Positions 2,841-59,139 of a stretch of DNA of 64,000 bases are shown piece by piece. How positions within the stretch are numbered: the stretch's first letter is position 1; each line of letters begins with the position of its first letter. Made by a program: the position numbers and the translations under genes. The stretch lies in sequence record OR449013; one strand, given 5' to 3'. This stretch comes from Escherichia phage Mangalyan. Under the pieces are notes generated by a model that made no database searches, had not been told where the DNA came from, and saw nothing but the letters and a program-made list of their open reading frames with translations.

Positions 2841-5800
2841 TATTCAACACTCTCCATCATAAGCTGGGTGTCTGTCAGTGCAGAGTTCCAAACTCTTATG
2901 TCCTTAATATGACCAAATAAGTGTCTTTCACCTGTCGCCGTTTGACCACCAATGCGGATGAAAGCGCCTCCTGCTAGGAATTCCCAAGAAGACTGCGTTT
3001 CCGTGCTCACCAGTCCGTTAGCAAAAGAGCAGGTTTTACCGTCATCTTTTATCCTGAACCCAATTTTCAATTTACGGGCTTTAGCCATCTCGTAAACACG
3101 TCTGTTTGACCCTCCAATATCACAGTATGGATAACCGTCCTTCGCAATATTTGTTGCAGAGCCAAACCCCATGATAAATGCAGCACCGGATTGATGACCC
3201 TCTGTATCAATAACCCTAGGGGCTGCGTTAGGAGCTTTGCCCCAGCCTCTCCAGTTGGCATCAACCGTAGCGGCGATAGTGAATGGTCTGGGCGCTAGGT
3301 TATCCGTCATTGGGAATTTACAAAGATCTGCCGCCCTGGTTACAGGTGAAGACCCTGTAGGGATAAACGAGGACTCACAAGATCCCAACTCAAACTGAGG
3401 TATTGCAACGTCAACCCAATCCCCTACGGCATGTTGAGAACTCTCCGGCGGGGCAATCTGGAACTGGCAACCGATATTCCTGTCAGAGGACACTGCCTCA
3501 AACGTAGCAACAACCCTTATCCAAGCAGGTCCGGCTGTTTGCCATCTCTCAGCTTTTACTTTAATTCTCCCCGCTGCAACACCTGTTGTTTTAACTTCAA
3601 GTGTTGACAGGTTAACATAAGCATCACCTTGAAATGTTGTGGTGGATCCGTCGTACATGTCGAATCTTATACGTAATCTCCGGTTCGCTTTACCTCCCCT
3701 TGCAATAATAGACCCAGTACAGAATTTCTCAGCACCTGTTACATCGGCACCTCTGGTGGCTGGAACTGTAGCAAGGTTTAACGCTGTTGTTTCCACACCG
3801 GATGCAGTGTTTACTGTAAATCTTGCACCTTTTGTGCCGTTGGTGTTTGTCACAGTACCACCAACAGTAATCTGTTGACTGGCTCCCCATTTACTAGGGT
3901 CTTCACTGTTAAGCATTAGGTTTGTCCTTTGCCCTTCAATAAGCAGACCATCTCTTTCAAAACGTGGTTGGTTTGCTTGTGCAACAGCCATAACACCACG
4001 CTTAGTGAAATAGGTTGCTGTAGAAGGTCTGGAGAAGACCATCTCACCTTCACCCAGTGCAGGTTTTAGGTTAGAGGTTAAAGGCAACCACAAGTCAGGC
4101 ATAACTGGAGCGGTGGTGTTTTCTGGGAAGCTTGTTCTCTTCCAAGGGCTCCAAGCCATTCCGCTGCCAAGGTTATTGTAATACCTTTCCCATGTTCCAC
4201 CAAGATACATTTTATATATCTGGATACAACCTGTTCCTTCGTTAGCGGAGTTTCTAAGAACGATCAGCGTACCAGCCATCTGCTGCCCTGGTGGGTAATT
4301 TCTTTCCGCTGTGGCGTTGGCATTTGCCTCTTGATGGTAAATCCCTTCACGATCTGCCTTGTAGTCGTTAAGGTCATTAGTTCCCAACCCTTGACCACGG
4401 TGCTGAATAACTTTGTTCCACGCTCTGTGGTTTCCCTGCTCTATGGAACGAGTGTACAGCTGATCTAAACGACCTGCCATCTGGAAAGCGTAGTTTCCAG
4501 AAAATGCCACAGACAACCCACCAACAACCATCGATCCTTCAGGTCCGTTGACATTGCCTGCCATTATTTTAGAAGGGTTGTTATTCCCGAACTGGTTGTT
4601 CCAGTCTGCACCTGTGTGGCATACAAAACCACCTGGTGCTGAGAAAGTACCATCCTTGTTGAAGTTGTAGAATCTATGAGCTGTGCCTACAACATCGCGA
4701 ACAATAACTTGACCCGCTTCCGGAGTAGATCTGAACTCTGCCTGACCTTTGAGACCAGCACCATTACCGCATTTAGAGGTAAACGTACCGTTAGTCAGAT
4801 CCTCTGTCCCATCGGATGCACACTGGAATCCTGCATTAGAGAATAACGCCTTTCTAGGACTGCCGTAGCACAAATAGTCAAGACCGTCTGCCCATAGCTC
4901 GACTTTTGGCATATTCATTTTGCTCATCACAGCATAGCGTTCAGCAGAACCTATATAGTGCCACTGTGTGCCGCCACCAGTGTAGAATCCTGAAGTACCT
5001 TTGAAGTCAACAATAGGTCTGGTATTGGTGTTGTTATCTCCAAGAATAGCAAGATTCAAATCTGCTGATTGAAGAGGTGCAACGAACTTAACCCCATCCT
5101 GATTGTTTGTTACAGAGCCGACTTGATAATCTTGCTCTCTGGTAAACACTTCGACAACATTTCTACTTGCGTATATGCTGACAGGGAAAGCACGAGCCTC
5201 TGCATAGAAAGCAACATACTCTTGTTTACCCCTTGTTGGAGCAACCATCCCAAGAAGTGCTTTTTCATTCTGGTAGAAATTTACTACCCCGTAGAAAGAG
5301 TCTCCCCTGTCCGTCCAGCCGCCAGTTCTATAGTGACACTGCAGGGTGGCACAGTTCATAGGGTCATTTCCAGATGAAGACCTGGTGACTATAGTAATAT
5401 CTGTACCTGTCGAATGGGCGTAATACGGATCTGTTCTAACGATGATTGGGTAGTATTTCCCATCTTCCATTCCTGCAGTTCTTGGCAGTGTTAAGAAGTC
5501 TTTTACACCTGCTGCTATAGGAACTTTGAACAGATTCTGAGCATCTGCTAAAGTTGTAGCCCCGGTGCCACCTGCGGCTTGAGGTAGAGGTTCCCACTTG
5601 GCCTTCCGGTTGTTATAAACACCCCATTCCAGAGTGCCGTTACCGGATTCGTCCATCTCACCATCCCAGATAACCATCTTGGCGGCTTTCTTGGACCCCC
5701 AGAAGCCTCTTTCTGCTCCTGAACTACGAATCCACTCTCCAAGTCCCCAGTTTGTCAGCTGACCAGTAAGATCCCCAACCTGCATGTATTTAGGACAGTC

Positions 5801-50011: not shown

Positions 50012-50242
50012 ATGAGCCATAACTCCAAGTGGAAGGATCTTGGTTTTGCAAGTCGGGCAGAGTATGTTGGTTGGCTTTGGTTCAACGGCCTGACAAACGA
50101 TATTAAAATGTATGATGATGTTTATTATGACGAGTATACAGGTAAAATTATAAATATCTCTGTAGAAGAGGATACCTTTATCCAGCAAGATACTGATACC
50201 TGCCTTGATAAATACGTTAATGAAGTGGAGGAAGCAAATTGA
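50012..50242 (+). CDS. hypothetical protein
   Basis: ATG 50012 with AAGGTGG SD (track ORF starts upstream at 49934). Confidence 0.35.
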   Translation: MSHNSKWKDLGFASRAEYVGWLWFNGLTNDIKMYDDVYYDEYTGKIINISVEEDTFIQQDTDTCLDKYVNEVEEAN

Positions 50243-52554
50243 TCACCAAGGTAATTAAAAGCAACGGATGTGAGGTAGCATTCGATCCAGAACGTTTAAA
50301 TAAGGCAGCTATTTTCGGTGACGACGGTAACGGCAATTGGTCACATATTGCACTGGATGCATACAAACGACTGTATGATGGATGTACAACCAAAGAAGTT
50401 AACCAAGCTATCATAGACTCCTGTGTTAGCCGTAAAGACGAAGCACATTCCCGTATGGCTGGTCGTGTTCTTATTGGTCAGATTTATAAAGAGGCTTTTG
50501 GAGGGTTTACAAAGATCCCTTCCTTACCATCATTTTACAATACCATGGTTGAGAAAGGGTATTGGGAGGATATGGGCTATAGCTTTACCGAGCTAAACAC
50601 TTTAGACGCTGTTATTGACCACAGTAAAGATCTCGGTTATGGCTATGCAGTCCTTAAACAGTTTCGCGACAAATACGGGATCAAGGATACTCTTAAAGAC
50701 ACCTTGTTTGAATCTCCCCAGATGATGTTTATGGGGATAGCAATGGCTGTCATGAAGAATATGCCGAAAGAACGTCGTATCAACGATGTTGTAAAATTAT
50801 ACACTTATCTGTCCGACTTAAAGATCAATGCCCCGACACCGTACTTAAACGGGCTGCGCACAGGTAAGACAGGGTATGCATCTTGTTGTGTAATAAAAGC
50901 TGACGATACAGCAAAATCTATTGGTGTGGCACGTGAAGTTGCGTACACAATGACGGTTAACCAAGCAGGTATCGGCTACTATTTATCATCAAGATCTGCA
51001 GGCGATGGTGTTCGTGGTAACACTATTAAACACATGGGTAAGATTCCATATTATCGAGGTATTGATGCTGGGGTTAAGGAGAACAGACAACAATCACGTG
51101 GCGGTTCTGCAACAGTATCATTTCTTGCACTAGACCCGCAGATTGATGAGCTAATCCGTTTGAGAAACCCTATGACTGTTGCTTCAAAAAGAATCAACAC
51201 CATGGACTACTCCATCGGTATTAATAGGTCGTTTATCAACCGTGTGGCTAAGAATTTGGATTGGATGCTTGTTTCTTATAAGCACGCGCCTCAACTGCAT
51301 GAGGGTATCTTCACCATGTCTATGGAGGAGTTTGATGCAGAGGTTGATCGTATTGCTAAAGATGACAGTATTCCTAAAACATGGATCCGGGCCAGAGATC
51401 TTGCTGTTGAACTGATCACGCAGCGTACTGAGGTGGGAAGGCTGTATGTATACTGGACAGATGAGATGAATAGACATACACCTTTTAAAGATGTGATCTA
51501 TTCAAGTAACCTGTGTGCAGAAATAGCCCTCCCGACAAAAGGCTATTCAGATATGCGTAATATCTTCAAGTACGATGCTGATGATGGAGAGGTTGCATTG
51601 TGCTTCCTGTCATCTCTTGTAGCTGGGAGGGTTACTCCAGAGGAGTATGAGGATGTTGCATACTATACGGTGCTTATGATTGACAATGTTATGGAAATCA
51701 TGACATATCCGTATGAAAATATGGAAAGCACAGTTAAAAAACGCAGATCCATCGGGGTTGGCCTTACCAATGTTGCACATTTTATTGCCAGCCACAAGGT
51801 TACTTACGGATCTCCTGAAAGTAAACAGCTCGTTCACGATCTTGCAGAACTTCACAGCTACAGCTTGCATAAGGCAAGTTTACGGTTGGCAAAAGAGCGT
51901 GGTGTCTGCGAGTGGATGCATAAAACAAAATATCCAGAAGGTTGGTTACCAATCGACACCTATAACAAAGAGGTCGATAGCGTGGTGAAAGATCCTTCTC
52001 TTAAACAGGATTGGGAAGGGTTACGTAAAGAAATCATTGAAAATGGTGGGCTACGTAATAGCGTTCTTGAAGCATATATGCCTAATGAAAGCTCTTCGCT
52101 GGCAACAAACACCACTAACGGGGTCTATCCTGTCCGTGAGCACATTATCTTTAAAAAGTCGCCACAAGGGCAGGTGCTGTTTATCGTTCCTGACTATGAT
52201 GAGTTGAAAGAGTATTACACTTCGGCTTGGGACGTTGATACTAACGACATGATCGATATGTATGCTGTGATTCAAAAATTCACAGGTCAGGCAATCAGCG
52301 CGGATTTGTACATAGACTACACCAAGTTGAAAGATGGTAAAATTTCAATGAAGGAGCAGCTAGGGTACCTTATCCGTGCCACTAAATTCGGAATGAAGAC
52401 ATGGTATTATTTAAACTCTAGGGTTGGTGCTGGCGACTCCTTGGCAGAGGAACTTCATGCCAAGAAACAGGCTGAAGATGAAACCAGAAAGAACTATCCT
52501 TTGAATGCAGATAGTTCAGTTGAAGATCAGTATTGCGAAAGTTGTGCACTATAA
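50239..52554 (+). CDS. nrdA: ribonucleotide reductase class Ia large subunit
   Basis: ATP-cone VIKSNGCEVAFDPERL at N-terminus, 771 aa, followed by nrdB; TTG start. Confidence 0.85.
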   Translation: MITKVIKSNGCEVAFDPERLNKAAIFGDDGNGNWSHIALDAYKRLYDGCTTKEVNQAIIDSCVSRKDEAHSRMAGRVLIGQIYKEAFGGFTKIPSLPSFYNTMVEKGYWEDMGYSFTELNTLDAVIDHSKDLGYGYAVLKQFRDKYGIKDTLKDTLFESPQMMFMGIAMAVMKNMPKERRINDVVKLYTYLSDLKINAPTPYLNGLRTGKTGYASCCVIKADDTAKSIGVAREVAYTMTVNQAGIGYYLSSRSAGDGVRGNTIKHMGKIPYYRGIDAGVKENRQQSRGGSATVSFLALDPQIDELIRLRNPMTVASKRINTMDYSIGINRSFINRVAKNLDWMLVSYKHAPQLHEGIFTMSMEEFDAEVDRIAKDDSIPKTWIRARDLAVELITQRTEVGRLYVYWTDEMNRHTPFKDVIYSSNLCAEIALPTKGYSDMRNIFKYDADDGEVALCFLSSLVAGRVTPEEYEDVAYYTVLMIDNVMEIMTYPYENMESTVKKRRSIGVGLTNVAHFIASHKVTYGSPESKQLVHDLAELHSYSLHKASLRLAKERGVCEWMHKTKYPEGWLPIDTYNKEVDSVVKDPSLKQDWEGLRKEIIENGGLRNSVLEAYMPNESSSLATNTTNGVYPVREHIIFKKSPQGQVLFIVPDYDELKEYYTSAWDVDTNDMIDMYAVIQKFTGQAISADLYIDYTKLKDGKISMKEQLGYLIRATKFGMKTWYYLNSRVGAGDSLAEELHAKKQAEDETRKNYPLNADSSVEDQYCESCAL

Positions 52555-52593: not shown

Positions 52594-53682
52594 ATGGCTG
52601 TATTTAATGCTGAGAACACCGCTCATAAAACTGGTGACTATCCGCTGTTTCTAGGACAGCAAATGGGTATGTACGACTCTATCAACAAAAAATATCCACA
52701 ACTGTTTGAACTATACAAAAAACAAAAAGAACAAGACTGGGCAGAGGATGAAGTGGATTTGTCGCAATCTATTTCAGATTTTGTAACATGCTCAAAGTCA
52801 ACTTATGACGTGATGGTGCAGACCTTGATGTGGCAATGGGAGGCTGATAGCGTTGCGGCAAGATCTATCATTTGTCTGTTTTCACCATTTATCACCAATA
52901 GTGAGCTTTTCACTCTATTGATGAAACAGTCAGAGATTGAAGTTCTTCACGCACTAACTTACTCAGAGATTGTTAGACAATGCCTCCCCAATGCCCGTGA
53001 GATTATAGAAGAGATTCAGGAAAACCAAAACGTTCTGAGCAGATCCGGCGTTATTGTCAAATACATGCAAGAGCTTGAGGTTATTGGTGCAAAATACCGA
53101 CTGGATCCTTCTAGTGTTGAAGAAGATGTTGTGCGGAAATGCATTCTTAGAGCGCTTTTTGCACTTTTAGCTCTGGAAAGTATTGAGTTTATTGCAAGTT
53201 TTGCATGCACTTTCGCAGTAGCTGAGCAGGGTATCTTTGTTCAGGTGGCGCAGCTTGTTCAAAAAATCATGCTTGACGAAATGCTACATTCGAAAGGTGA
53301 TTTTGCCATCATTGATATCCTGCTTAATGATCCCGCATGGGAGAAAAGCTTCCTTGAGATAAAAGGGGAGTTAAAAGAGATTCTTGATGAAGTACGAACC
53401 AAAGAGTACGGTTGGAGTGACTATATTTTCAGCGAAGGAAGAGCGATTATAGGTCTTAACTCACCGTTGCTTAAAGAATGGGTTGACTATAACTGCTCAC
53501 CGATTTATGATTACTACGACATCGACAAAGACTTTGTGCCGCCAACAAAGGACCCTCTACCGTTTATGCAGGTGTGGATGAAACCTTCATTGCAACAGAC
53601 GGCGAACCAAGAAATGTCGAACACTGACTACCGCGTCAACACAACTGTTAACGACGCTGAAGAAGAAATTTGGGAGTTTTAA
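52594..53682 (+). CDS. nrdB: ribonucleotide reductase small subunit
   Basis: 362 aa, di-iron R2-type pattern (EIEVLHALTYSEIV), directly after nrdA. Confidence 0.8.
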   Translation: MAVFNAENTAHKTGDYPLFLGQQMGMYDSINKKYPQLFELYKKQKEQDWAEDEVDLSQSISDFVTCSKSTYDVMVQTLMWQWEADSVAARSIICLFSPFITNSELFTLLMKQSEIEVLHALTYSEIVRQCLPNAREIIEEIQENQNVLSRSGVIVKYMQELEVIGAKYRLDPSSVEEDVVRKCILRALFALLALESIEFIASFACTFAVAEQGIFVQVAQLVQKIMLDEMLHSKGDFAIIDILLNDPAWEKSFLEIKGELKEILDEVRTKEYGWSDYIFSEGRAIIGLNSPLLKEWVDYNCSPIYDYYDIDKDFVPPTKDPLPFMQVWMKPSLQQTANQEMSNTDYRVNTTVNDAEEEIWEF

Positions 53683-53685
53683 TAC

Positions 53686-53964
53686 ATGAGCTGTGAAAAA
53701 TCTTTTTTCTTTATTATTTACGGTAAAGATAACTGCCCACATTGTGTAAGAGCAAAAGAATTTGCAGTCAGTAAGGGTCTGCCTTTTGTATATAAGACAC
53801 TTGGCGAGGGTTACACAAAAGAAGAGCTTATTGAGAAGTGCAGTCCAATCGTACCCAGAACGTTGCCGCAGATCTTCTTAGAAAGTAATCTTGAAAGTGT
53901 CCATATAGGCGGTGCCGACGATTTCATCTCTTTTGTTAAGAATGGTTTTGGAGAGAAAAAGTGA
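53686..53964 (+). CDS. glutaredoxin (NrdH/Grx-like)
   Basis: CPHC redox motif near N-terminus; 92 aa; between nrdB and nrdD. Confidence 0.7.
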   Translation: MSCEKSFFFIIYGKDNCPHCVRAKEFAVSKGLPFVYKTLGEGYTKEELIEKCSPIVPRTLPQIFLESNLESVHIGGADDFISFVKNGFGEKK

Positions 53965-54821
53965 AAGTTGTAAAACGGGACGGTAGAGAAGAGGTCTATA
54001 ACGGAATTAAGGTGATCAAGGCGGCAGAGTCCGCCTTACTTGAGTCTGGACATACTGAAGAAGAAGCTTACCGGATCGCCTGCGCGGTTAATGAAGTTGT
54101 TGCTAACACTCTACCAACCGACCAGTGCACGATCTCTGTAAAAAATATCCATATCCTTGTTGAAGACGCTCTTATGGATATGGGTTTAAAATGTGCAGCC
54201 AGAGAATACATCCAGTATAGGCAGACAAGAGATAATAATAGAGAGGCAGGTGGAAAACTGCTTGCAGATATTAGTGGCTTCTTGGATCGCACTTGTGATG
54301 AATTTACAAAAGAAAACGCAAATAAGCCTACCAATCATGTACACACTCATCGTGACCTGCTTGCAGGCATCCTTAGCAAACACCTTGCATCAACACAGAT
54401 CCTGCCAGACCGTGTCTCAGAAGAGCACAATAGAGGCTTCATCCATGTGCATGATCTTGACTACTTGATCAGTCCGTTAACAAACTGTTGTTTGGTAAAT
54501 TATCCAGATATGTTGGAAAACGGATTCAACATTGGTAACGCCCATGTCAGTAAGCCGAAGTCAATAGGGGTTGCAACAACAATCCTTAGCCAAATCTCTA
54601 GTGCAGTAGCTAGTGCTCAATATGGTGGTCAGACTATGAGCCATATTGATCATTATCTGGCACAGTATGCTGAAGCGACCTATGAGAAGAACCTTAAATT
54701 TTGCCAGGAACATTGGTTGCCAGATGCTGAGACTGTTGCAATGCAAATGACAGATAAAGACGTATTTGACAGCATGCAGACTTTGCTCTATCAAATCAAT
54801 ACGTTAACTTCTGTCAACGGT
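53961..54821 (+). CDS. nrdD: anaerobic ribonucleoside-triphosphate reductase, exon 1
   Basis: ATP-cone VVKRDGREEVYNGIKV; ORF ends with TAA at the first intron codon. Confidence 0.8.
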
Positions 54822-54975
54822 TAACAAACTGGCCGTTGTAAAACTCTCCTAACCTCATAAGAGGGGTCGGTAAATCCGGCTAACGGGGAACGCTAAGGCG
54901 AAAGCTATGCCAATCCCGTGACTAGTTCTTACAGGAGTTGGAACGGTTGTAACGACTAACGAAAGGCAGAGATGC

Positions 54976-55004
54976 TTGACAAACATTTCTGAACCAAGTA
55001 GTGT
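54976..55004 (+). promoter_or_regulatory. promoter-like element inside intron upstream of homing endonuclease ORF (TTGACA-17-TAGTGT)
   Basis: TTGACAAA motif as in other phage promoters here; weak -10. Confidence 0.35.
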
Positions 55005-55045
55005 AGGGGTTAGTTGAAATACTAACTTCGAAATGGAGAGGCTCT

Positions 55046-55579
55046 ATGAAAAAGATCATTCTTAATGGTGAAGAATCAAACTATGTGATTGATGAGGTTG
55101 GAAACGTATACGGAAAACGTGGAATGCTACACCCAATATTGTGGGGAGGTTATGGAAAAGGTAAAAAGCATGTTAAACGCCGTTATATGTACTCTTTCAA
55201 CCACAAAGGTAAAAAGATTCGAATCCAAACCTCAAGGATTGTTGCCTTGTATTGTTTGCCGGATGTCCCAGAAGACCCTGAAAACTGGGAAGTGAATCAT
55301 AAAGATGGCAATACATTGAATGATCATCCGTCTAACCTAGAGTGGGTTTTGCCGGAAGATAATAAGAGACATGCTTTCCGAACAGGACTTTGTCCAGGTA
55401 AGTGCTATAGGAAAGTGCAGGCATACAAAGGGAAAACCTTGGTGGGTGAATATCCTTCACTCTATGCCTGTGCAAAAGCCTTAAATTTGAACGTAGGTAA
55501 CGTTCATAGGGCTATCGAAGGAAATGCCGAAGGTAAGCATCTCACAATAAAGGGTTATTATCTTATTGAAGTAGAGTAA
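55046..55579 (+). CDS. HNH homing endonuclease (intron-encoded)
   Basis: VNHKDGNTLNDHPSNLEWV...EDNKRH HNH motif; GGAGAGG SD; stop abuts the intron S element. Confidence 0.7.
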   Translation: MKKIILNGEESNYVIDEVGNVYGKRGMLHPILWGGYGKGKKHVKRRYMYSFNHKGKKIRIQTSRIVALYCLPDVPEDPENWEVNHKDGNTLNDHPSNLEWVLPEDNKRHAFRTGLCPGKCYRKVQAYKGKTLVGEYPSLYACAKALNLNVGNVHRAIEGNAEGKHLTIKGYYLIEVE

Positions 55580-55639
55580 GAGATAGTCTGGCCCTGTGGA
55601 AACACAGGGAGGAGACAGCAGACTCCATTCATCACATTG

Positions 55640-56881
55640 AGTTTAGGACTGGATACCTCGGTCTTTGGTAGAATGATTACCAAAAACTACTTGAAAGTCC
55701 ACAAAATGGGTCTTGGTGAAGAACGTATTACACCTGTATTCCCTAAAGTGCTGTTCTTCCTGGAAGAGGGTGTTAACATGAACCCTGGGGATCCTAACTA
55801 TGATTTGAAACGATTAGCTCTGGAATGCTGTGCAGAACGTATCTACCCTGACTTCGTATCTGTACCACTAAATAGAAAAGTGACAGGCTCGACAGATGGC
55901 AAAGTAACGAGCATGGGTTGCCGGAGTTTTCTTAGCAAATATAATGACTTGGAAACAGGTGAGGAAAAATACCTTGGCAGATTCAACTTGGGTGTTGTTA
56001 GCCTTAACCTGCCAATGATTGCGGCAAAAGCTAAGACGGAAGGTGTTGATTTCTTTGCAGTTCTTGACGAATACTTGGATCTTGCATACGAGGCTCACCT
56101 TGTAAGGGTTAACCGTCTAAAAGGAACAAAGGCAGGGCAGAACCCCATCATGTGGTGTGAAGGCGCTCTTGCTCGCCTGGATCCTGAAGAAAGTATTGAT
56201 AAACTCTTCTATGACGGGTACGCTTCCATCAGCATTGGGTATATTGGTGTGTATGAAACCTGTCAGATTTTGGGCAGAGAGGGTGACAAGGCTTTAGCTC
56301 TTGGAATCCTTCAGCACATGAGAGATGCTTGTGAGCGATACAAGAAGGAAAGTAGACTAGCGTTTAGCTTGTACGGCACCCCTTCTGAGAGTCTATGCTA
56401 TAAAGCTGCAACCTGTCTGGATCGTGAATATCCTGAAGTGTTGAAGCACGAGCATGAATATCTCACCAACAGTTTCCATCAGCCAGTATGGATCAATAGC
56501 TCTCCTTTTGATAAGTGGGCGTATGAGGAAGGTTTTGCTATGATCTCCTCTGGTGGCAACATCGGATATGTAGAGACACCGAATCTGAAAAACAACTTAG
56601 ATGCTTTAGAGGCTCTTGTTGACTTCGGGTATAAACACATTATGTATTTTGGTATTAACCAACCTGTGGATAAATGTCTCAAGTGTGGTTTCTCTGGGGA
56701 GTTCAGTGCAACAGCTAAAGGCTTTGTATGCCCAGAGTGTGGAAACCATGAAGAGGGAACGATCAGTGTGATCAGACGTGTGTCTGGATACCTTTCCAGT
56801 CCTAACTCCCGTCCTTATAATAAAGGTAAGCAAGCGGAAGTTATCGAGCGAGTTAAGCACTATGGAAGTTGTAGTTGCTGA
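55640..56881 (+). CDS. nrdD: anaerobic ribonucleoside-triphosphate reductase, exon 2
   Basis: Glycyl-radical motif RVSGYL and zinc ribbon CLKCGF...CPECG; predicted 3' splice site after G at 55639 (P10 AGUUU / AAACU). Confidence 0.8.
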   Translation, partial: SLGLDTSVFGRMITKNYLKVHKMGLGEERITPVFPKVLFFLEEGVNMNPGDPNYDLKRLALECCAERIYPDFVSVPLNRKVTGSTDGKVTSMGCRSFLSKYNDLETGEEKYLGRFNLGVVSLNLPMIAAKAKTEGVDFFAVLDEYLDLAYEAHLVRVNRLKGTKAGQNPIMWCEGALARLDPEESIDKLFYDGYASISIGYIGVYETCQILGREGDKALALGILQHMRDACERYKKESRLAFSLYGTPSESLCYKAATCLDREYPEVLKHEHEYLTNSFHQPVWINSSPFDKWAYEEGFAMISSGGNIGYVETPNLKNNLDALEALVDFGYKHIMYFGINQPVDKCLKCGFSGEFSATAKGFVCPECGNHEEGTISVIRRVSGYLSSPNSRPYNKGKQAEVIERVKHYGSCSC

Positions 56882-56945
56882 TACTTGACAAAAGCCACAA
56901 GGATGTGGCACCATACAGATGTTTAGGGAAGTTAGGAAACAAGAG

Positions 56946-58079
56946 ATGGCTAAATTATCGACAGAAGAGTTTATAGAGAAGGCGAAAATCATTCACGGTT
57001 ATAAATACAATTACAAGAAAACAGTGTACGTGGATTGCTATGCGAAGGTTTGCATTACCTGTCAAATCCATGGAGATTTTATGCAAGCACCTTGTCAACA
57101 CTTGCAAGGTCGTGGTTGTCCTTTTTGTGCAAAACTTTCTCGTGCTACAAAGTGTAATAAAGGTCTTAAATTTGTAGAAAGAGCCAAAGAAATCCATGGA
57201 GATAACTATGACTACTCTCTCGTATACTACAAGACTTGCAAAGATAAAGTAGAAATAATCTGCAATACTTGTGGAAATCACTTTACACAGACACCTGACA
57301 ATCATATAAATTTGAAAAGAGGTTGTCCAGTTTGCAAGGGGTCAAGAATCTCACAAAGCAAAACCAAACCTCATGAAAAGTGGGTTGAGGACATAGAGAA
57401 GAAAAATACTTATATTGAAATATTAGAAGAGATCACCACTGGGTGGAATAAAGTATTATGTCGTTGCAAAGTTTGCAACCACGAATGGTCAGCTACGCCT
57501 GTTATCCTTAAGCGTGGTCACGGCTGCCCCGGATGTGGCGGATCTATGAAAAAGACCACTGAAGAGTTTATCCAGGACGCTGTGGCTATCCACGGGAACA
57601 AGTATGATTACTCTAAAGTGAGGTATGTGAATTCACACATCAAGGTTACAATTGTTTGCACAGATCATGGAGATTTCTGTCAATCCCCTACCCAGCATTT
57701 AGGAGGGGGAGGGTGTCCTAAATGCACCAAAAGAGGATTTTTATCCCACGATTGTGGTAAACTTTACATTATGGTTGATGATCCGGAAGTGCCTACATTT
57801 ATGAAAATAGGTGTCAGTCATAATGAAAGTAAGCGAAGAGACCAGATACTTAAAAGTGCACAAAGATCTGGAGCTGGTATCTGCGATCTGTACATAGTGA
57901 AAACGTTGGAAGGATCAACTGAAAACATGCTGGCTGTAGAAAAATCTATGCACAAAGCCTTCAGTAAATATAAAATAAACTTCCCTGTAAAATTTGATGG
58001 TAGCACCGAATTCTTCTACTACAGGCCTGAGGTGTTCAGCACAGTGGAAGCAGCGTACAAAGAGATCTGCGGTAAATGA
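56946..58079 (+). CDS. zinc-ribbon repeat protein with C-terminal T5orf172/GIY-YIG-like domain (putative freestanding homing endonuclease)
   Basis: Three repeats of HG-x-Y-x-Y...C-x-HG-F...GCP-x-C and C-terminal KLYIMVDDP...MKIGVS; located between nrdD and nrdG. Confidence 0.4.
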   Translation: MAKLSTEEFIEKAKIIHGYKYNYKKTVYVDCYAKVCITCQIHGDFMQAPCQHLQGRGCPFCAKLSRATKCNKGLKFVERAKEIHGDNYDYSLVYYKTCKDKVEIICNTCGNHFTQTPDNHINLKRGCPVCKGSRISQSKTKPHEKWVEDIEKKNTYIEILEEITTGWNKVLCRCKVCNHEWSATPVILKRGHGCPGCGGSMKKTTEEFIQDAVAIHGNKYDYSKVRYVNSHIKVTIVCTDHGDFCQSPTQHLGGGGCPKCTKRGFLSHDCGKLYIMVDDPEVPTFMKIGVSHNESKRRDQILKSAQRSGAGICDLYIVKTLEGSTENMLAVEKSMHKAFSKYKINFPVKFDGSTEFFYYRPEVFSTVEAAYKEICGK

Positions 58080-58131
58080 TCGTAGAAAGATACACATATC
58101 TTAAACATGCTATAAACTAAGGAGGTACAGT

Positions 58132-58248
58132 ATGTCTACAGGCATTTATAAAATTTGCAAGTGTGGTTGTCGTTGCAATCTTCGTTGGTGCAAGGCACTG
58201 GACGATTTTATTTGGCATTGTCCTGAATGCGATGCAGAGTACTTATAA
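58132..58248 (+). CDS. 38-aa cysteine-rich micro-protein (MSTGIYKICKCGCRCNLRWCKALDDFIWHCPECDAEYL)
   Basis: ATG preceded by AAGGAGG; 8 Cys in 38 aa; below track size cutoff. Confidence 0.4.
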   Translation: MSTGIYKICKCGCRCNLRWCKALDDFIWHCPECDAEYL

Positions 58249-58263
58249 GCATAAGGGGTCGAA

Positions 58264-58368
58264 ATGCGGAAATCTATCAAGAAAATCAAGATAAAATTGT
58301 TAGCACTGAAGCGTAAGTATAAAAAGTTATACGGCTTCATCAAATGGACTTTTATAAGTTTATCTTGA
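58264..58368 (+). CDS. 34-aa basic micro-ORF (MRKSIKKIKIKLLALKRKYKKLYGFIKWTFISLS)
   Basis: ATG with AAGGGG SD; may be non-coding. Confidence 0.25.
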   Translation: MRKSIKKIKIKLLALKRKYKKLYGFIKWTFISLS

Positions 58369-58399: not shown

Positions 58400-58636
58400 A
58401 TGGTAGGTGTCTGTGTAAAAGCTAACAGATGGTTTACATTCGGCAAGGATTACGAAATTATCTTTCATTCGGACAGAGCCACAACAGTAGAAAGCGATGA
58501 TGGGTGCTACTGGTTCGTTAGTTACCAGGGTGATGGGTATTATAGATCTACTGATTCCAGAGGGGAAGAAGCTGTTTTCTTAGATAGAGCTTATTGTGGG
58601 CCTGAATATCCCTACCTCAAAGAGGGTAAGGAATGA
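58400..58636 (+). CDS. hypothetical protein
   Basis: 78-aa ORF; stop overlaps nrdG start. Confidence 0.4.
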   Translation: MVGVCVKANRWFTFGKDYEIIFHSDRATTVESDDGCYWFVSYQGDGYYRSTDSRGEEAVFLDRAYCGPEYPYLKEGKE

Positions 58637-59106
58637 ATGTTGTTAATATTATAGAGTGTAGCATGGTTGACGGCCCAGGCATTAGGACAACGGTGTTCTG
58701 TTCTGGTTGTCCACATCACTGCGTTGGTTGCCAAAACAAAAGTGTTTGGTCACCCGCTAAAGGGGAACCGTTAACAAATGACACAATTGAGAGTATACTT
58801 CACTCTATAGAGCCGAAACATATTACTGGCGTTACATTATGCGGTGGCGAACCTTTAGCGCCTTACAATATCGATGGTATGTACTCGATCATTCTCGCTA
58901 TCCGTGAACGCTTCGGCAACACAAAAACTATCTGGGTGTACACAGGGTATTTGTTTGAAGAAGTCCCAGGTTATATTAAAGATAGTGTCGATTACATTAT
59001 GGATGGTAAGTACGAAAAAGATAACCCCACCAAAAAACCATTCAGAGGTAGTGATAACCAAAGAATGTTTAAAAAAGTATCAGGCGGTTGGGTTCAGGTA
59101 GACTAG
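58633..59106 (+). CDS. nrdG: anaerobic ribonucleotide reductase activating protein (radical SAM)
   Basis: CSGCPHHCVGC cluster motif; 157 aa. Confidence 0.8.
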   Translation: MNVVNIIECSMVDGPGIRTTVFCSGCPHHCVGCQNKSVWSPAKGEPLTNDTIESILHSIEPKHITGVTLCGGEPLAPYNIDGMYSIILAIRERFGNTKTIWVYTGYLFEEVPGYIKDSVDYIMDGKYEKDNPTKKPFRGSDNQRMFKKVSGGWVQVD

Positions 59107-59109
59107 CTG

Positions 59110-59139
59110 TTGACAAAGCTTTGTTTAGATAGGTATAAT
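59110..59139 (+). promoter_or_regulatory. strong sigma70-like promoter (TTGACA-18-TATAAT)
   Basis: TTGACAAAGC...TATAATTATCG, immediately upstream of the 59171 micro-ORF. Confidence 0.6.

What the first reader, a model, noticed from the sequence alone, without database searches (positions are those of the whole stretch)
58132..58248. Cysteine-rich 38-aa micro-protein with strong ribosome-binding site
An unannotated small ORF with an AAGGAGG SD encodes MSTGIYKICKCGCRCNLRWCKALDDFIWHCPECDAEYL (8 Cys, probable zinc knuckle). It falls below the ORF-track size cutoff. Small zinc-binding phage proteins often act as host-takeover or anti-defence factors.
Basis: seen in the sequence. Interest (0 to 1): 0.45.

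Follow-up and report, generated by a model that had tools for sequence, protein, structure and literature searches.

The report
Conserved zinc-ribbon microprotein in phage nrd operon
The 38-codon reading frame is a real gene under purifying selection, encoding a cysteine-rich, probably zinc-binding mini-protein between the two anaerobic ribonucleotide reductase genes of rV5-like E. coli phages; other phage genomes already list it as a hypothetical protein and its function is untested.

Summary
The ORF (58132-58248, +) and its AAGGAGG ribosome-binding site are there, but the peptide has 7 cysteines, not 8. The window is an rV5-like Vequintavirus.

**It is a real gene.**
- Among homologues, variable sites fall 8/2/19 on codon positions 1/2/3.
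- pN/pS is 0.08 in this frame, 0.19 in the antisense frame that shares its wobble position, and 1.3-2.9 in the other four.
- Every Cys codon varies only TGC/TGT, and every copy keeps an SD and the same stop position.

**It is not new.** An identical protein is in GenBank. The family is phrog_20137, mislabelled "ribonucleotide reductase". The rV5 reference annotates the wrong frame.

**Distribution.**
- All ~119 Vequintavirus-type records carry it, always just downstream of nrdD.
- In most lineages its stop overlaps the nrdG start.
- An uncultured relative has a 54-aa form.
- One SP6-like podovirus, with no nrd gene within 3 kb either side, also has a copy.
- Nothing else turned up among 1.84 billion representative proteins.

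**Fold.** No significant sequence or fold match exists. Weak matches and low-confidence models point to a zinc ribbon with three extra invariant Cys.

**Function.** My best guess is an accessory partner of the class III RNR on the NrdD side. An incidental host-directed small gene is nearly as likely. Nothing supports anti-defence. Interest is modest.

The parts
58119..58125 (+). Shine-Dalgarno sequence AAGGAGG, 6 nt upstream of the ATG
   Evidence: Read directly. Every homologue has an AGGAG/GGAGG-type SD 6-9 nt before its ATG.
58132..58248 (+). Small gene: 38 aa, 7 Cys, member of phrog_20137. Probably a zinc-ribbon microprotein.
   Evidence: ORF seen. phrog_20137 matches at E = 2.3e-31 over the full length. 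pN/pS is 0.081 in this frame, 0.19 in antisense frame -1 (which shares the wobble position) and 1.3-2.9 in the other four frames. Six Cys are invariant and one nearly so across 36 variants.
53961..56881 (+). nrdD (class III RNR large subunit). It is interrupted by a 797-nt insertion at 54821-55617 that carries an HNH homing endonuclease ORF (55046-55579).
   Evidence: ORFs. blastn against the uninterrupted rV5 nrdD places the insertion. Rfam RF00028 group I intron matches at 27.7 bits, below the gathering score. HNH_3 Pfam hit.
56911..58114 (+). Free-standing homing-endonuclease cassette (ORF 56919-58079; DUF4379 zinc fingers plus a T5orf172 domain). It sits between nrdD and the small gene, is absent from rV5, and ends 17 nt before the small gene's ATG, leaving the SD intact.
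   Evidence: Pfam and PHROG hits. rV5-versus-window blastn. The same cassette is present in WalterGehring and SophiaRose.
58264..58368 (+). 34-aa, very basic ORF (rV5 gp110 equivalent). It belongs to the ~385-nt block that separates the small gene from nrdG in the rV5-type arrangement only.
   Evidence: Absent in FFH2, SophiaRose, L005, L009, L011 and L015.
58400..58636 (+). 78-aa ORF (phrog_3249, unknown function). Its stop overlaps the nrdG ATG. It belongs to the same rV5-type block.
58633..59106 (+). nrdG (radical-SAM activase of class III RNR), rV5-type allele
   Evidence: ORF. tblastn and annotation. It is only about 50% identical to the FFH2-type and L005-type alleles.
59110..59139 (+). 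Perfect sigma-70 consensus promoter (TTGACA-18-TATAAT) just after nrdG. It marks the next transcription unit, so the small gene probably sits inside the nrd transcript.
   Evidence: The same site is annotated as promoter P118 in rV5. No comparable promoter lies just upstream of the small gene.

Best explanation
The ORF is a real, translated gene for a 38-aa metal-binding microprotein with a probable zinc-ribbon fold. One Cys4 site would be built from the N-terminal Cys cluster and the C-terminal WxCPxC knuckle. Three further invariant Cys may form a second site.

It is expressed from its own strong SD within the phage nucleotide-metabolism operon (nrdA-nrdB-grx-nrdD-X-...-nrdG). My inference for how it works: it acts by binding a protein partner in the anaerobic (class III) ribonucleotide reductase system. 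The partner is more likely on the NrdD side, because the gene is inherited together with nrdD. Its ancestral arrangement is translationally coupled to nrdG. On this reading it modulates or stabilises formation or maintenance of active NrdD under low oxygen.

Shown here: coding status, purifying selection, conservation, synteny and operon position.
Inferred, not shown: metal binding, the fold, and above all the RNR partner.
For: **Coding**
- Variable sites by codon position are 8/2/19 (chi2 15.4, p 4.6e-4). In 14 of 22 variable codons the changes are purely synonymous, and all Cys codons vary only TGC/TGT.
- pN/pS is 0.081 in this frame, 0.19 in the wobble-sharing antisense frame, and 1.3-2.9 in the others.
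- dS is saturated while dN is 0.03-0.12.
- The indels are 3, 6 and 39 nt, all in frame.
- The SD and the stop position are conserved in every lineage.

**Core gene**
- About 119 Vequintavirus-type records carry it, against 118 that carry this nrdD. 120 of 121 tblastn hits are full length.

**Synteny with nrdD and nrdG**
- rV5, WalterGehring, SophiaRose, FFH2 and the metagenomic lineages L005/L011/L015 all have nrdD-(HEG)-X-nrdG.
- In the latter lineages, and in L009 by sequence, there is an ATGA stop/start overlap with the downstream ATG, which is nrdG wherever genes are called.

**Travels with nrdD**
- The NrdD C-terminus is 83-99% identical and the X core about 85-100%, while the NrdG alleles are only about 50% identical.

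**Zinc ribbon**
- C9, C11, C13, C15, C30, C33, P31 and W28 are invariant.
- The AF2 MSA model gives a three-stranded sheet.
- All weak neighbours are zinc ribbons or other small zinc domains.

**Operon**
- No promoter-like site lies just upstream, and a consensus promoter follows nrdG.
Against: - The partner is pure inference from gene order.
- The SP6-like podovirus ACG-C91 carries an intact copy between a gp24-like gene and a ligase-like gene, with no nrd gene annotated within 3 kb either side. SP6-like phages are not known to carry RNR genes (my own knowledge). That copy would have to act on host NrdD/NrdG or on something else.
- Other phage NrdD-NrdG pairs lack it: phi92-like SF1-1 with 66% NrdD identity, T4, and a Jiaodavirus. 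It is therefore not a general RNR component.
- The nrdD-nrdG gap is a hotspot for homing endonucleases and unrelated small ORFs in several phages, so position alone is weak evidence.
- The structure models are low confidence (pLDDT 71 and 64), and no fold or sequence match is significant.
- The window's form has CxC instead of the canonical CxxC first knuckle.
- One metagenomic contig encodes a deletion fusion that destroys the C-terminal knuckle (P0005).
Confidence: 0.4

Rival explanations
1. It is an autonomous small accessory gene (a 'moron') whose product targets a host protein unrelated to RNR, for example in host takeover or counter-defence. Its place between nrdD and nrdG only reflects a permissive insertion hotspot.
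For: - It moved as a precise ORF-sized unit into the unrelated podovirus ACG-C91, next to a ligase-like gene.
- The nrdD-nrdG interval holds homing endonucleases and unrelated small ORFs in T4, SUSP1, SarahDanielle and this window.
- It is absent from other phages that have NrdD and NrdG.
- The family is very narrow: only 3 true relatives among 1.84 billion representatives.
Against: - It stays exactly downstream of nrdD in lineages whose other neighbours differ. Examples are the three nrdG alleles, and L005, which has no Pfam-recognisable nrdAB or glutaredoxin in the ~2.3 kb upstream.
- Its stop overlaps the nrdG start in most lineages.
- No anti-defence or takeover family was matched. The anti-defence idea itself was not tested with any dedicated library.
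Confidence: 0.3
2. It is a nucleic-acid-binding zinc-ribbon regulator, working like phage Mu Com. Com is a small zinc protein encoded immediately upstream of, and overlapping, the gene whose translation it controls. Here the controlled gene would be nrdG.
For: - ATGA overlap with the downstream gene in most lineages.
- A weak per-member Pfam match to Zn_ribbon_Com, E = 0.33, in 1 of 34 members.
- Zinc ribbons commonly bind RNA or DNA (general knowledge).
Against: - The protein is almost invariant while the downstream gene and its start region are replaced: three roughly 50%-identical nrdG alleles, a 34-aa ORF in the rV5 type, and a ligase-like gene in ACG-C91. A sequence-specific target downstream is therefore unlikely.
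- The Com match is insignificant.
- The 38-aa form has few basic residues outside K7, K10, R14, R18 and K21.
Confidence: 0.1
3. It is a redox or Fe-S microprotein. The seven Cys would bind iron (rubredoxin-like Fe(Cys)4 or a small Fe-S cluster) or cycle as thiols. The protein would serve as electron donor, reductant or metal donor for NrdG or NrdD.
For: - Seven conserved Cys in 38 aa, three more than a Cys4 ribbon needs.
- It is located in an operon with a glutaredoxin-like gene, the Zn- and radical-dependent NrdD and the [4Fe-4S] enzyme NrdG.
- The WxCPxC knuckle resembles the second rubredoxin knuckle (my own knowledge).
Against: - No rubredoxin or ferredoxin family hit even at E = 10.
- No CxxCxxC-type cluster motif is present.
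- Rubredoxin potentials are far too high to reduce a radical-SAM cluster (established biochemistry).
- The ACG-C91 copy lies in a region with no phage nrd genes.
Confidence: 0.1
4. The ORF is not the functional gene. Either it is a chance ORF, or the overlapping +1 frame annotated in the rV5 reference (gp109, 75 aa) or the antisense frame is the real one.
For: - RefSeq rV5 annotates gp109 in the +1 frame across this stretch.
- The antisense -1 frame is open in all homologues and has the second-lowest pN/pS, 0.19.
Against: - The +1 frame has stop codons in ACG-C91, SophiaRose and L005, and its pN/pS is 1.28.
- The low ratio in the antisense -1 frame is expected because it shares the wobble position, and it is still more than twice that of the sense frame.
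- The antisense frame has no conserved start or stop, and every neighbouring gene is on the + strand.
Confidence: 0.02

Closest known systems
PHROG family phrog_20137 and GenBank hypothetical proteins of Vequintavirus (e.g. AXU22564.1, bas51_0185, FG37_gp178)
   Same: It is the same protein family. The full-length match is E = 2.3e-31 over all 38 profile positions, and an identical sequence is in GenBank.
   Different: Nothing differs in sequence. The PHROG and RefSeq label 'ribonucleotide reductase' is a misnomer: the peptide has no NRDD or glycyl-radical domain. No member has been studied experimentally, as far as four literature searches show.
Stand-alone zinc-ribbon / CPxCG-type microproteins (Haloferax HVO_0758 mu-protein, Thermus ZifS PDB 8yoz, zinc ribbons of ribosomal eL43/L37ae and Rpb9)
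   Same: - Comparable size class.
- Two Cys knuckles, with a (I)WxCPxC second knuckle identical to that of eL43.
- A predicted three-stranded sheet.
- These are the top, though insignificant, sequence and fold neighbours.
   Different: - No significant homology: all E-values exceed 0.04 by sequence and exceed 1 by Foldseek.
- Seven rather than four Cys.
- The first knuckle is CxC in the 38-aa form.
- It is phage-encoded and sits inside an RNR operon.
C-terminal Zn(Cys)4 ribbon of NrdD itself
   Same: Both have a K-C-x-K-C-G ... C-P-E-C pattern and are encoded next to each other. In E. coli NrdD this Zn site is needed for glycyl-radical formation (my own knowledge of the literature).
   Different: BLASTP finds only the 6-7-residue knuckles (E = 0.1-0.14 in a two-sequence comparison). 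The spacing differs, 18 versus 14 residues. There is no glycyl-radical motif. It is not a duplicated NrdD fragment.
Phage Mu Com (zinc-ribbon translational activator of mom)
   Same: It is a small phage zinc-ribbon protein encoded directly upstream of, and overlapping, another gene.
   Different: The match is insignificant (E = 0.33, 1 of 34 members). The downstream gene is not constant across homologues.
NrdR N-terminal zinc ribbon (repressor of nrd operons)
   Same: It is a zinc ribbon linked to RNR biology.
   Different: hhalign probability is 2.8% with only 7 aligned columns. There is no ATP-cone. Foldseek rank is 29 at E = 8.7.

Membership tests
phrog_20137 (Vequintavirus 38-aa protein family) | Full-length significant match to the family profile | tested here: met
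   E = 2.3e-31, 108.6 bits, residues 1-38 on profile positions 1-38 of 38.
phrog_20137 (Vequintavirus 38-aa protein family) | Conserved genomic position downstream of nrdD in rV5-like phages | tested here: met
   About 119 Vequintavirus-type records carry the ORF, against 118 with this nrdD.
Zinc ribbon (Cys4) fold | Two zinc knuckles (CxxC ... CxxC) separated by a beta-hairpin | tested here: inconclusive
   The second knuckle, C30-P-E-C33, is canonical and invariant. The first is CxC in this protein and CxxC in the 41- and 54-aa variants. Four Cys within 7 residues allow alternative ligand sets.
Zinc ribbon (Cys4) fold | Three-stranded antiparallel sheet; structural similarity to solved zinc ribbons | tested here: inconclusive
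   The AF2 MSA model gives strands 16-20, 25-30 and 35-37, but pLDDT is only 64. Foldseek top hits are Rpb9, ZifS and NUDIX zinc ribbons at rmsd about 1 A over 27-30 columns, but all have E > 1. The single-sequence model (pLDDT 71) instead resembles two-zinc FYVE/RING/PHD domains, also with E > 1.
Zinc ribbon (Cys4) fold | Stoichiometric Zn binding | not testable with these tools
   Needs purified protein and metal analysis.
Class III ribonucleotide reductase NrdD (the label some records give this ORF) | NRDD catalytic barrel or glycyl-radical domain (RVxG motif) | tested here: not met
   No Pfam family at E <= 1 for the peptide, or at E <= 10 across 34 members. There is no RVxG motif in the sequence. 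The neighbouring true NrdD carries its own Zn ribbon and RVSGY motif.
Rubredoxin | CxxCG ... CPxCG knuckles around an aromatic core of about 50 aa, with a match to the rubredoxin profile | tested here: not met
   No rubredoxin family among the Pfam or NCBIfam matches even at E = 10. At 38 aa it is too short for the rubredoxin core.
Mu Com-type translational activator | Significant match to Zn_ribbon_Com; a specific RNA target at the start of the downstream gene | tested here: not met
   Best E = 0.33, in 1 of 34 members. The downstream sequence is not conserved among homologues. RNA binding itself is not testable here.
   No library of anti-defence proteins was available. PHROGs, Pfam, NCBIfam and PDB gave no such match. 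A host target needs experiments.

The most novel reading that the evidence does not exclude
The microprotein is a previously unrecognised third, lineage-specific component of a phage class III ribonucleotide reductase system. It would be a 7-Cys metal-cluster partner of NrdD that assists or protects glycyl-radical activation, or supplies reducing equivalents. It could also act on the host enzyme, which would explain its survival in a podovirus that carries no nrd gene near it.
Probability: 0.2. Interest if true: 0.6.

Novelty: new member of a known kind. Interest (0 to 1): 0.3.

Why it matters
If the RNR link is real, it would add a small metal-binding accessory factor to an enzyme system (NrdD/NrdG) that has long been treated as having two components. 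It would also give a handle on how gut phages keep dNTP synthesis running without oxygen.

As things stand, its value is mainly curatorial:
- It shows that a genus-wide core gene of rV5-like phages is mis-framed in the reference genome (rV5 gp109).
- It shows that the gene is mislabelled 'ribonucleotide reductase' in PHROGs and RefSeq.
- It supplies a cheap, well-defined candidate (38 aa, 7 Cys) for microprotein studies in the BASEL phage collection.

Tried and rejected
Rerun with the 41-aa relative, it found only 7 near-identical clusters.
- A whole-library phmmer search gave 6 hits, of which 3 were repeat-protein artefacts (P0001, P0004, P0006).
- IMG/VR gave only 3 loci, one of them ACG-C91 itself.
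- Pfam, NCBIfam and PDB sequence searches found nothing significant.
- Two AF2 models had low confidence, and two Foldseek PDB searches returned nothing with E below 1.
- Derivation from the NrdD zinc ribbon, or relationship to NrdR, was rejected.
- The rV5 gp109 frame and the antisense frame as the real gene were rejected.
- I looked for a general pattern of small Cys-rich ORFs beside nrdG in other phages. It is not general: SF1-1, T4 and a Jiaodavirus have none. SarahDanielle has an unrelated 84-aa CPFCGG...CNCC ORF.
- No copy in 5,426 complete E. coli genomes. The single 'plasmid' hit is a phage-sized record.
- Literature searches (Vequintavirus + transcriptome; nrdD + nrdG + zinc ribbon; rV5 + ribosome profiling) found nothing on this protein.
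- The terminator-like hairpin inside the ORF (58185-58201) was set aside as chance: 6 sites found against 4.5 expected.

Full report
**1. Observation**

The sequence shows ATG at 58132 and TAA ending at 58248 on the + strand. It encodes MSTGIYKICKCGCRCNLRWCKALDDFIWHCPECDAEYL, 38 aa. AAGGAGG lies at 58119-58125, six bases before the ATG.

The peptide has seven cysteines (positions 9, 11, 13, 15, 20, 30, 33), not eight. It has the highest Cys fraction of all 335 ATG-ORFs of at least 30 aa in the window. Only two AAGGAGG sites in the window sit 4-9 nt before a start codon.

**2. Where the window comes from, and the gene's surroundings**

The region is 92-98% identical to rV5-like E. coli myoviruses of the genus Vequintavirus.

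The local gene order runs as follows:
- nrdA (50239-52554)
- nrdB (52594-53682)
- a glutaredoxin-like gene (53686-53964)
- nrdD (53961-56881)
- a free-standing homing endonuclease (56919-58079)
- the small ORF
- a 34-aa ORF
- a 78-aa ORF
- nrdG (58633-59106)
- a perfect sigma-70 promoter (59110-59139)
- later, phoH

Comparison with rV5 defines two insertions. nrdD is interrupted at 54821-55617 by an element that carries an HNH endonuclease. The second endonuclease cassette occupies 56911-58114 and ends 17 nt before the small ORF's ATG, so the SD is untouched. The first insertion gives a sub-threshold group I intron match.

No promoter-like site lies just upstream of the small ORF. It is therefore most simply part of the nrd transcript. 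That is an inference.

**3. Is it a gene?**

Yes.

*Distribution.* tblastn finds it in 121 phage records, 120 at full length. 118 records carry this nrdD, so it is a genus-wide core gene. More divergent copies are:
- a 41-aa form in phage SophiaRose;
- a 54-aa form with a Lys/Glu-rich N-terminal extension, in roughly 133-137 kb metagenomic contigs;
- an unannotated copy in the unrelated SP6-like podovirus ACG-C91.

*Conservation.* Across 36 variants, six Cys are invariant, as are K7, K10, G12, N16-L17-R18-W19, L23-D24-D25, W28, P31, E36 and Y37. C20 is nearly invariant.

*Substitution pattern.*
- In the ungapped 28-codon core of seven distinct DNA sequences, variable sites fall 8/2/19 on codon positions 1/2/3. 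This gives chi2 15.4, p 4.6e-4.
- 14 of 22 variable codons change only synonymously, and every Cys codon toggles TGC/TGT.
- Summed over 21 pairs, pN/pS is 0.081 in this frame. It is 0.19 in the antisense frame that shares the wobble position, and 1.3-2.9 in the other four frames.
- dS is saturated between lineages while dN stays at 0.03-0.12.

*Boundaries.* All copies have an AGGAG-type SD 6-9 nt before the ATG and end at the same ...EYL stop.

*The competing annotation.* The +1 frame that RefSeq annotates in rV5 as gp109 (75 aa) has stop codons in three lineages and pN/pS of 1.28. That annotation is in the wrong frame.

**4. It is not new as a sequence**

The identical protein is in GenBank (AXU22564.1, phage Pr121LW). 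Its 90% cluster has 46 member sequences, several of them seen on tens to hundreds of contigs. It matches phrog_20137 end to end at E = 2.3e-31.

Records call it 'hypothetical protein', 'ribonucleotide reductase' or 'putative anaerobic ribonucleoside-triphosphate reductase'. The two latter names are unfounded. The peptide has no NRDD or glycyl-radical domain. The true NrdD next door has its own zinc ribbon and RVSGY motif.

Four literature searches found nothing on it.

**5. How narrow the family is**

A full HMMER pass over 1.84 billion representative proteins gave only three true relatives:
- the 41-aa form;
- the 54-aa form;
- one deletion fusion, P0005.

The other three hits were repeat-protein artefacts. 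There is no copy in 5,426 complete E. coli genomes. The single 'plasmid' hit is a 137.5-kb phage-like record.

**6. What kind of protein**

No Pfam, NCBIfam or PDB sequence match is significant. The weak ones are all small zinc ribbons: eL43/L37ae (IWHCPKC), PolD DP2, LysW, the HVO_0758 mu-protein, YdjO, LITAF-like and Mu Com.

The structure evidence is weak:

| Model | pLDDT | Prediction | Top Foldseek neighbours (all E > 1) |
|---|---|---|---|
| AlphaFold2, single sequence | 71 | short strands and a turn after CPEC | two-zinc FYVE/RING/PHD domains, FwdE ribbon |
| AlphaFold2, with alignment | 64 | three-stranded sheet | Rpb9, ZifS and NUDIX zinc ribbons, rmsd about 1 A over 27-30 columns |

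I therefore call it a probable zinc ribbon, by inference only.

Two details deserve note. The first knuckle is CxC here and CxxC in the 41- and 54-aa forms. And three invariant Cys are surplus to a Cys4 site. A second metal site or a redox role is possible but untested. His29 is replaced by Tyr in several members, so it is not a required ligand.

**7. Context as the only functional clue**

*In favour of a link to the anaerobic RNR.*
- In FFH2, SophiaRose, L005, L011 and L015 the small gene lies directly between nrdD and nrdG, with its stop overlapping the nrdG ATG (ATGA). L009 has the same ATGA junction by sequence.
- In the rV5 type, to which this window belongs, a ~385-nt block with two other ORFs and a different nrdG allele follows instead.
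- NrdG occurs as three alleles only about 50% identical to one another. The NrdD C-terminus stays 83-99% identical and the small protein's core about 85-100%.
- So recombination breakpoints fall just 3' of the small gene, and it travels with nrdD.

*Against an obligatory RNR role.*
- Phage SF1-1, with 66% NrdD identity, joins nrdD directly to nrdG. T4 and a Jiaodavirus also lack the gene.
- The nrdD-nrdG gap commonly harbours homing endonucleases and unrelated small ORFs.
- The ACG-C91 copy has no phage nrd gene within 3 kb on either side. It sits just before a ligase-like gene, with the same ATGAATAT junction as the FFH2-type nrdG start.

**8. Explanation and rivals**

| Explanation | Confidence | Main argument against |
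|---|---|---|
| Co-expressed metal-binding microprotein that binds a partner in the class III RNR system, more likely NrdD, and modulates or stabilises its activation | 0.4 for the whole statement; about 0.9 for 'real gene', about 0.6 for zinc ribbon, about 0.3-0.35 for the RNR partner | partner inferred from gene order only |
| Incidental accessory gene with a host target outside RNR | 0.3 | stable position downstream of nrdD across lineages |
| Com-like regulator of the downstream gene | 0.1 | downstream gene and start region are not constant |
| Fe/redox cofactor protein | 0.1 | no family hit, no cluster motif |
| Wrong-frame or chance ORF | 0.02 | stops and high pN/pS in other frames |

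No direct homology to the NrdD zinc ribbon or to NrdR was found.

**9. Verdict**

The coding and zinc-binding reading is reasonable. The anti-defence and takeover suggestion has no support.

It is an uncharacterised member of the broad class of zinc-ribbon microproteins and is already in the databases. Interest is modest at 0.3. The one point that could raise it is a real role in anaerobic dNTP synthesis, which needs the experiments listed under next steps.

Noticed in passing
window 54821-55617 (HNH ORF 55046-55579): nrdD is interrupted by a 797-nt insertion that is absent from rV5. It carries an HNH homing endonuclease and gives a sub-threshold group I intron match (RF00028, 27.7 bits against a gathering score of 50, E = 6e-4). 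The BASEL phage WalterGehring annotates its nrdD as a two-piece join with the same endonuclease inside.
   Followed up: partly
window 56911-58114 (ORF 56919-58079): A free-standing homing endonuclease (three DUF4379 treble-clef zinc fingers plus a T5orf172 domain) is inserted in the 62-nt nrdD/small-ORF spacer, where it replaces 16 nt of rV5 sequence. It is present in some Vequintaviruses (WalterGehring, SophiaRose, inoa) and absent in others (rV5, DrSchubert).
   Followed up: partly
L001 (rV5, NC_011041.1) 3436-3663 = rv5_gp109: The reference rV5 annotation places a 75-aa CDS in the +1 frame over the small gene. That frame has stops in other lineages and pN/pS of 1.28, so the annotation looks wrong. 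Several RefSeq, PHROG and GenBank names for the 38-aa ORF ('ribonucleotide reductase') are also unfounded.
   Followed up: yes
window 58633-59106; L012 3501-3974; L005 6162-6635: Near-identical Vequintaviruses (nrdD 90-99% identical at DNA level) carry nrdG alleles that are only about 50% identical in protein: rV5 type, FFH2/SophiaRose type and L005 type. This is a module swap with its breakpoint immediately 3' of the small gene.
   Followed up: partly
window 58264-58368 and 58400-58636: A 34-aa extremely basic ORF (MRKSIKKIKIKLLALKRKYKK...) and a 78-aa ORF (phrog_3249, labelled 'minor capsid protein' in some records without support) come together with the rV5-type nrdG allele only. Their functions are unknown.
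   Followed up: no
L003 (phage ACG-C91, JN986844.1) 2999-3108: There is an unannotated, intact 36-aa copy of the small gene in an SP6-like podovirus. Its stop overlaps the ATG of a ligase-like gene (KRDG motif). The junction TTATGAATAT is the same as at the FFH2-type nrdG start, which suggests the copy was acquired from a Vequintavirus-type nrdD-X-nrdG locus.
   Followed up: partly
P0005 (ENA metagenome contig, 1473 bp): A 62-aa protein fuses residues 1-21 of the small protein in frame to the C-terminal part of the 78-aa ORF. It is either a natural deletion that destroys the second zinc knuckle or an assembly artefact.
   Followed up: no
GenBank MG0656xx records: Eighteen records named 'Campylobacter phage' are 92-97% identical in this protein to E. 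coli rV5-like phages and have the same genome size. They look like mislabelled or contaminating Vequintaviruses.
   Followed up: no
window 3729-3890, minus strand: This is the second most Cys-rich ORF in the window: 53 aa with 9 Cys (MGSQSTDYCWWYCDKHQRHKRCKIYSKHCIRCGNN...). I did not examine it, and it may be an antisense artefact of a + strand gene.
   Followed up: no
L014 (Hafnia phage SarahDanielle) 2496-2750: An unrelated 84-aa ORF with CPFCGG...CNCC motifs lies between nrdD and nrdG of a FelixO1-like phage. It is possibly another zinc-ribbon protein in the same gap, but other phages show no such pattern.
   Followed up: partly
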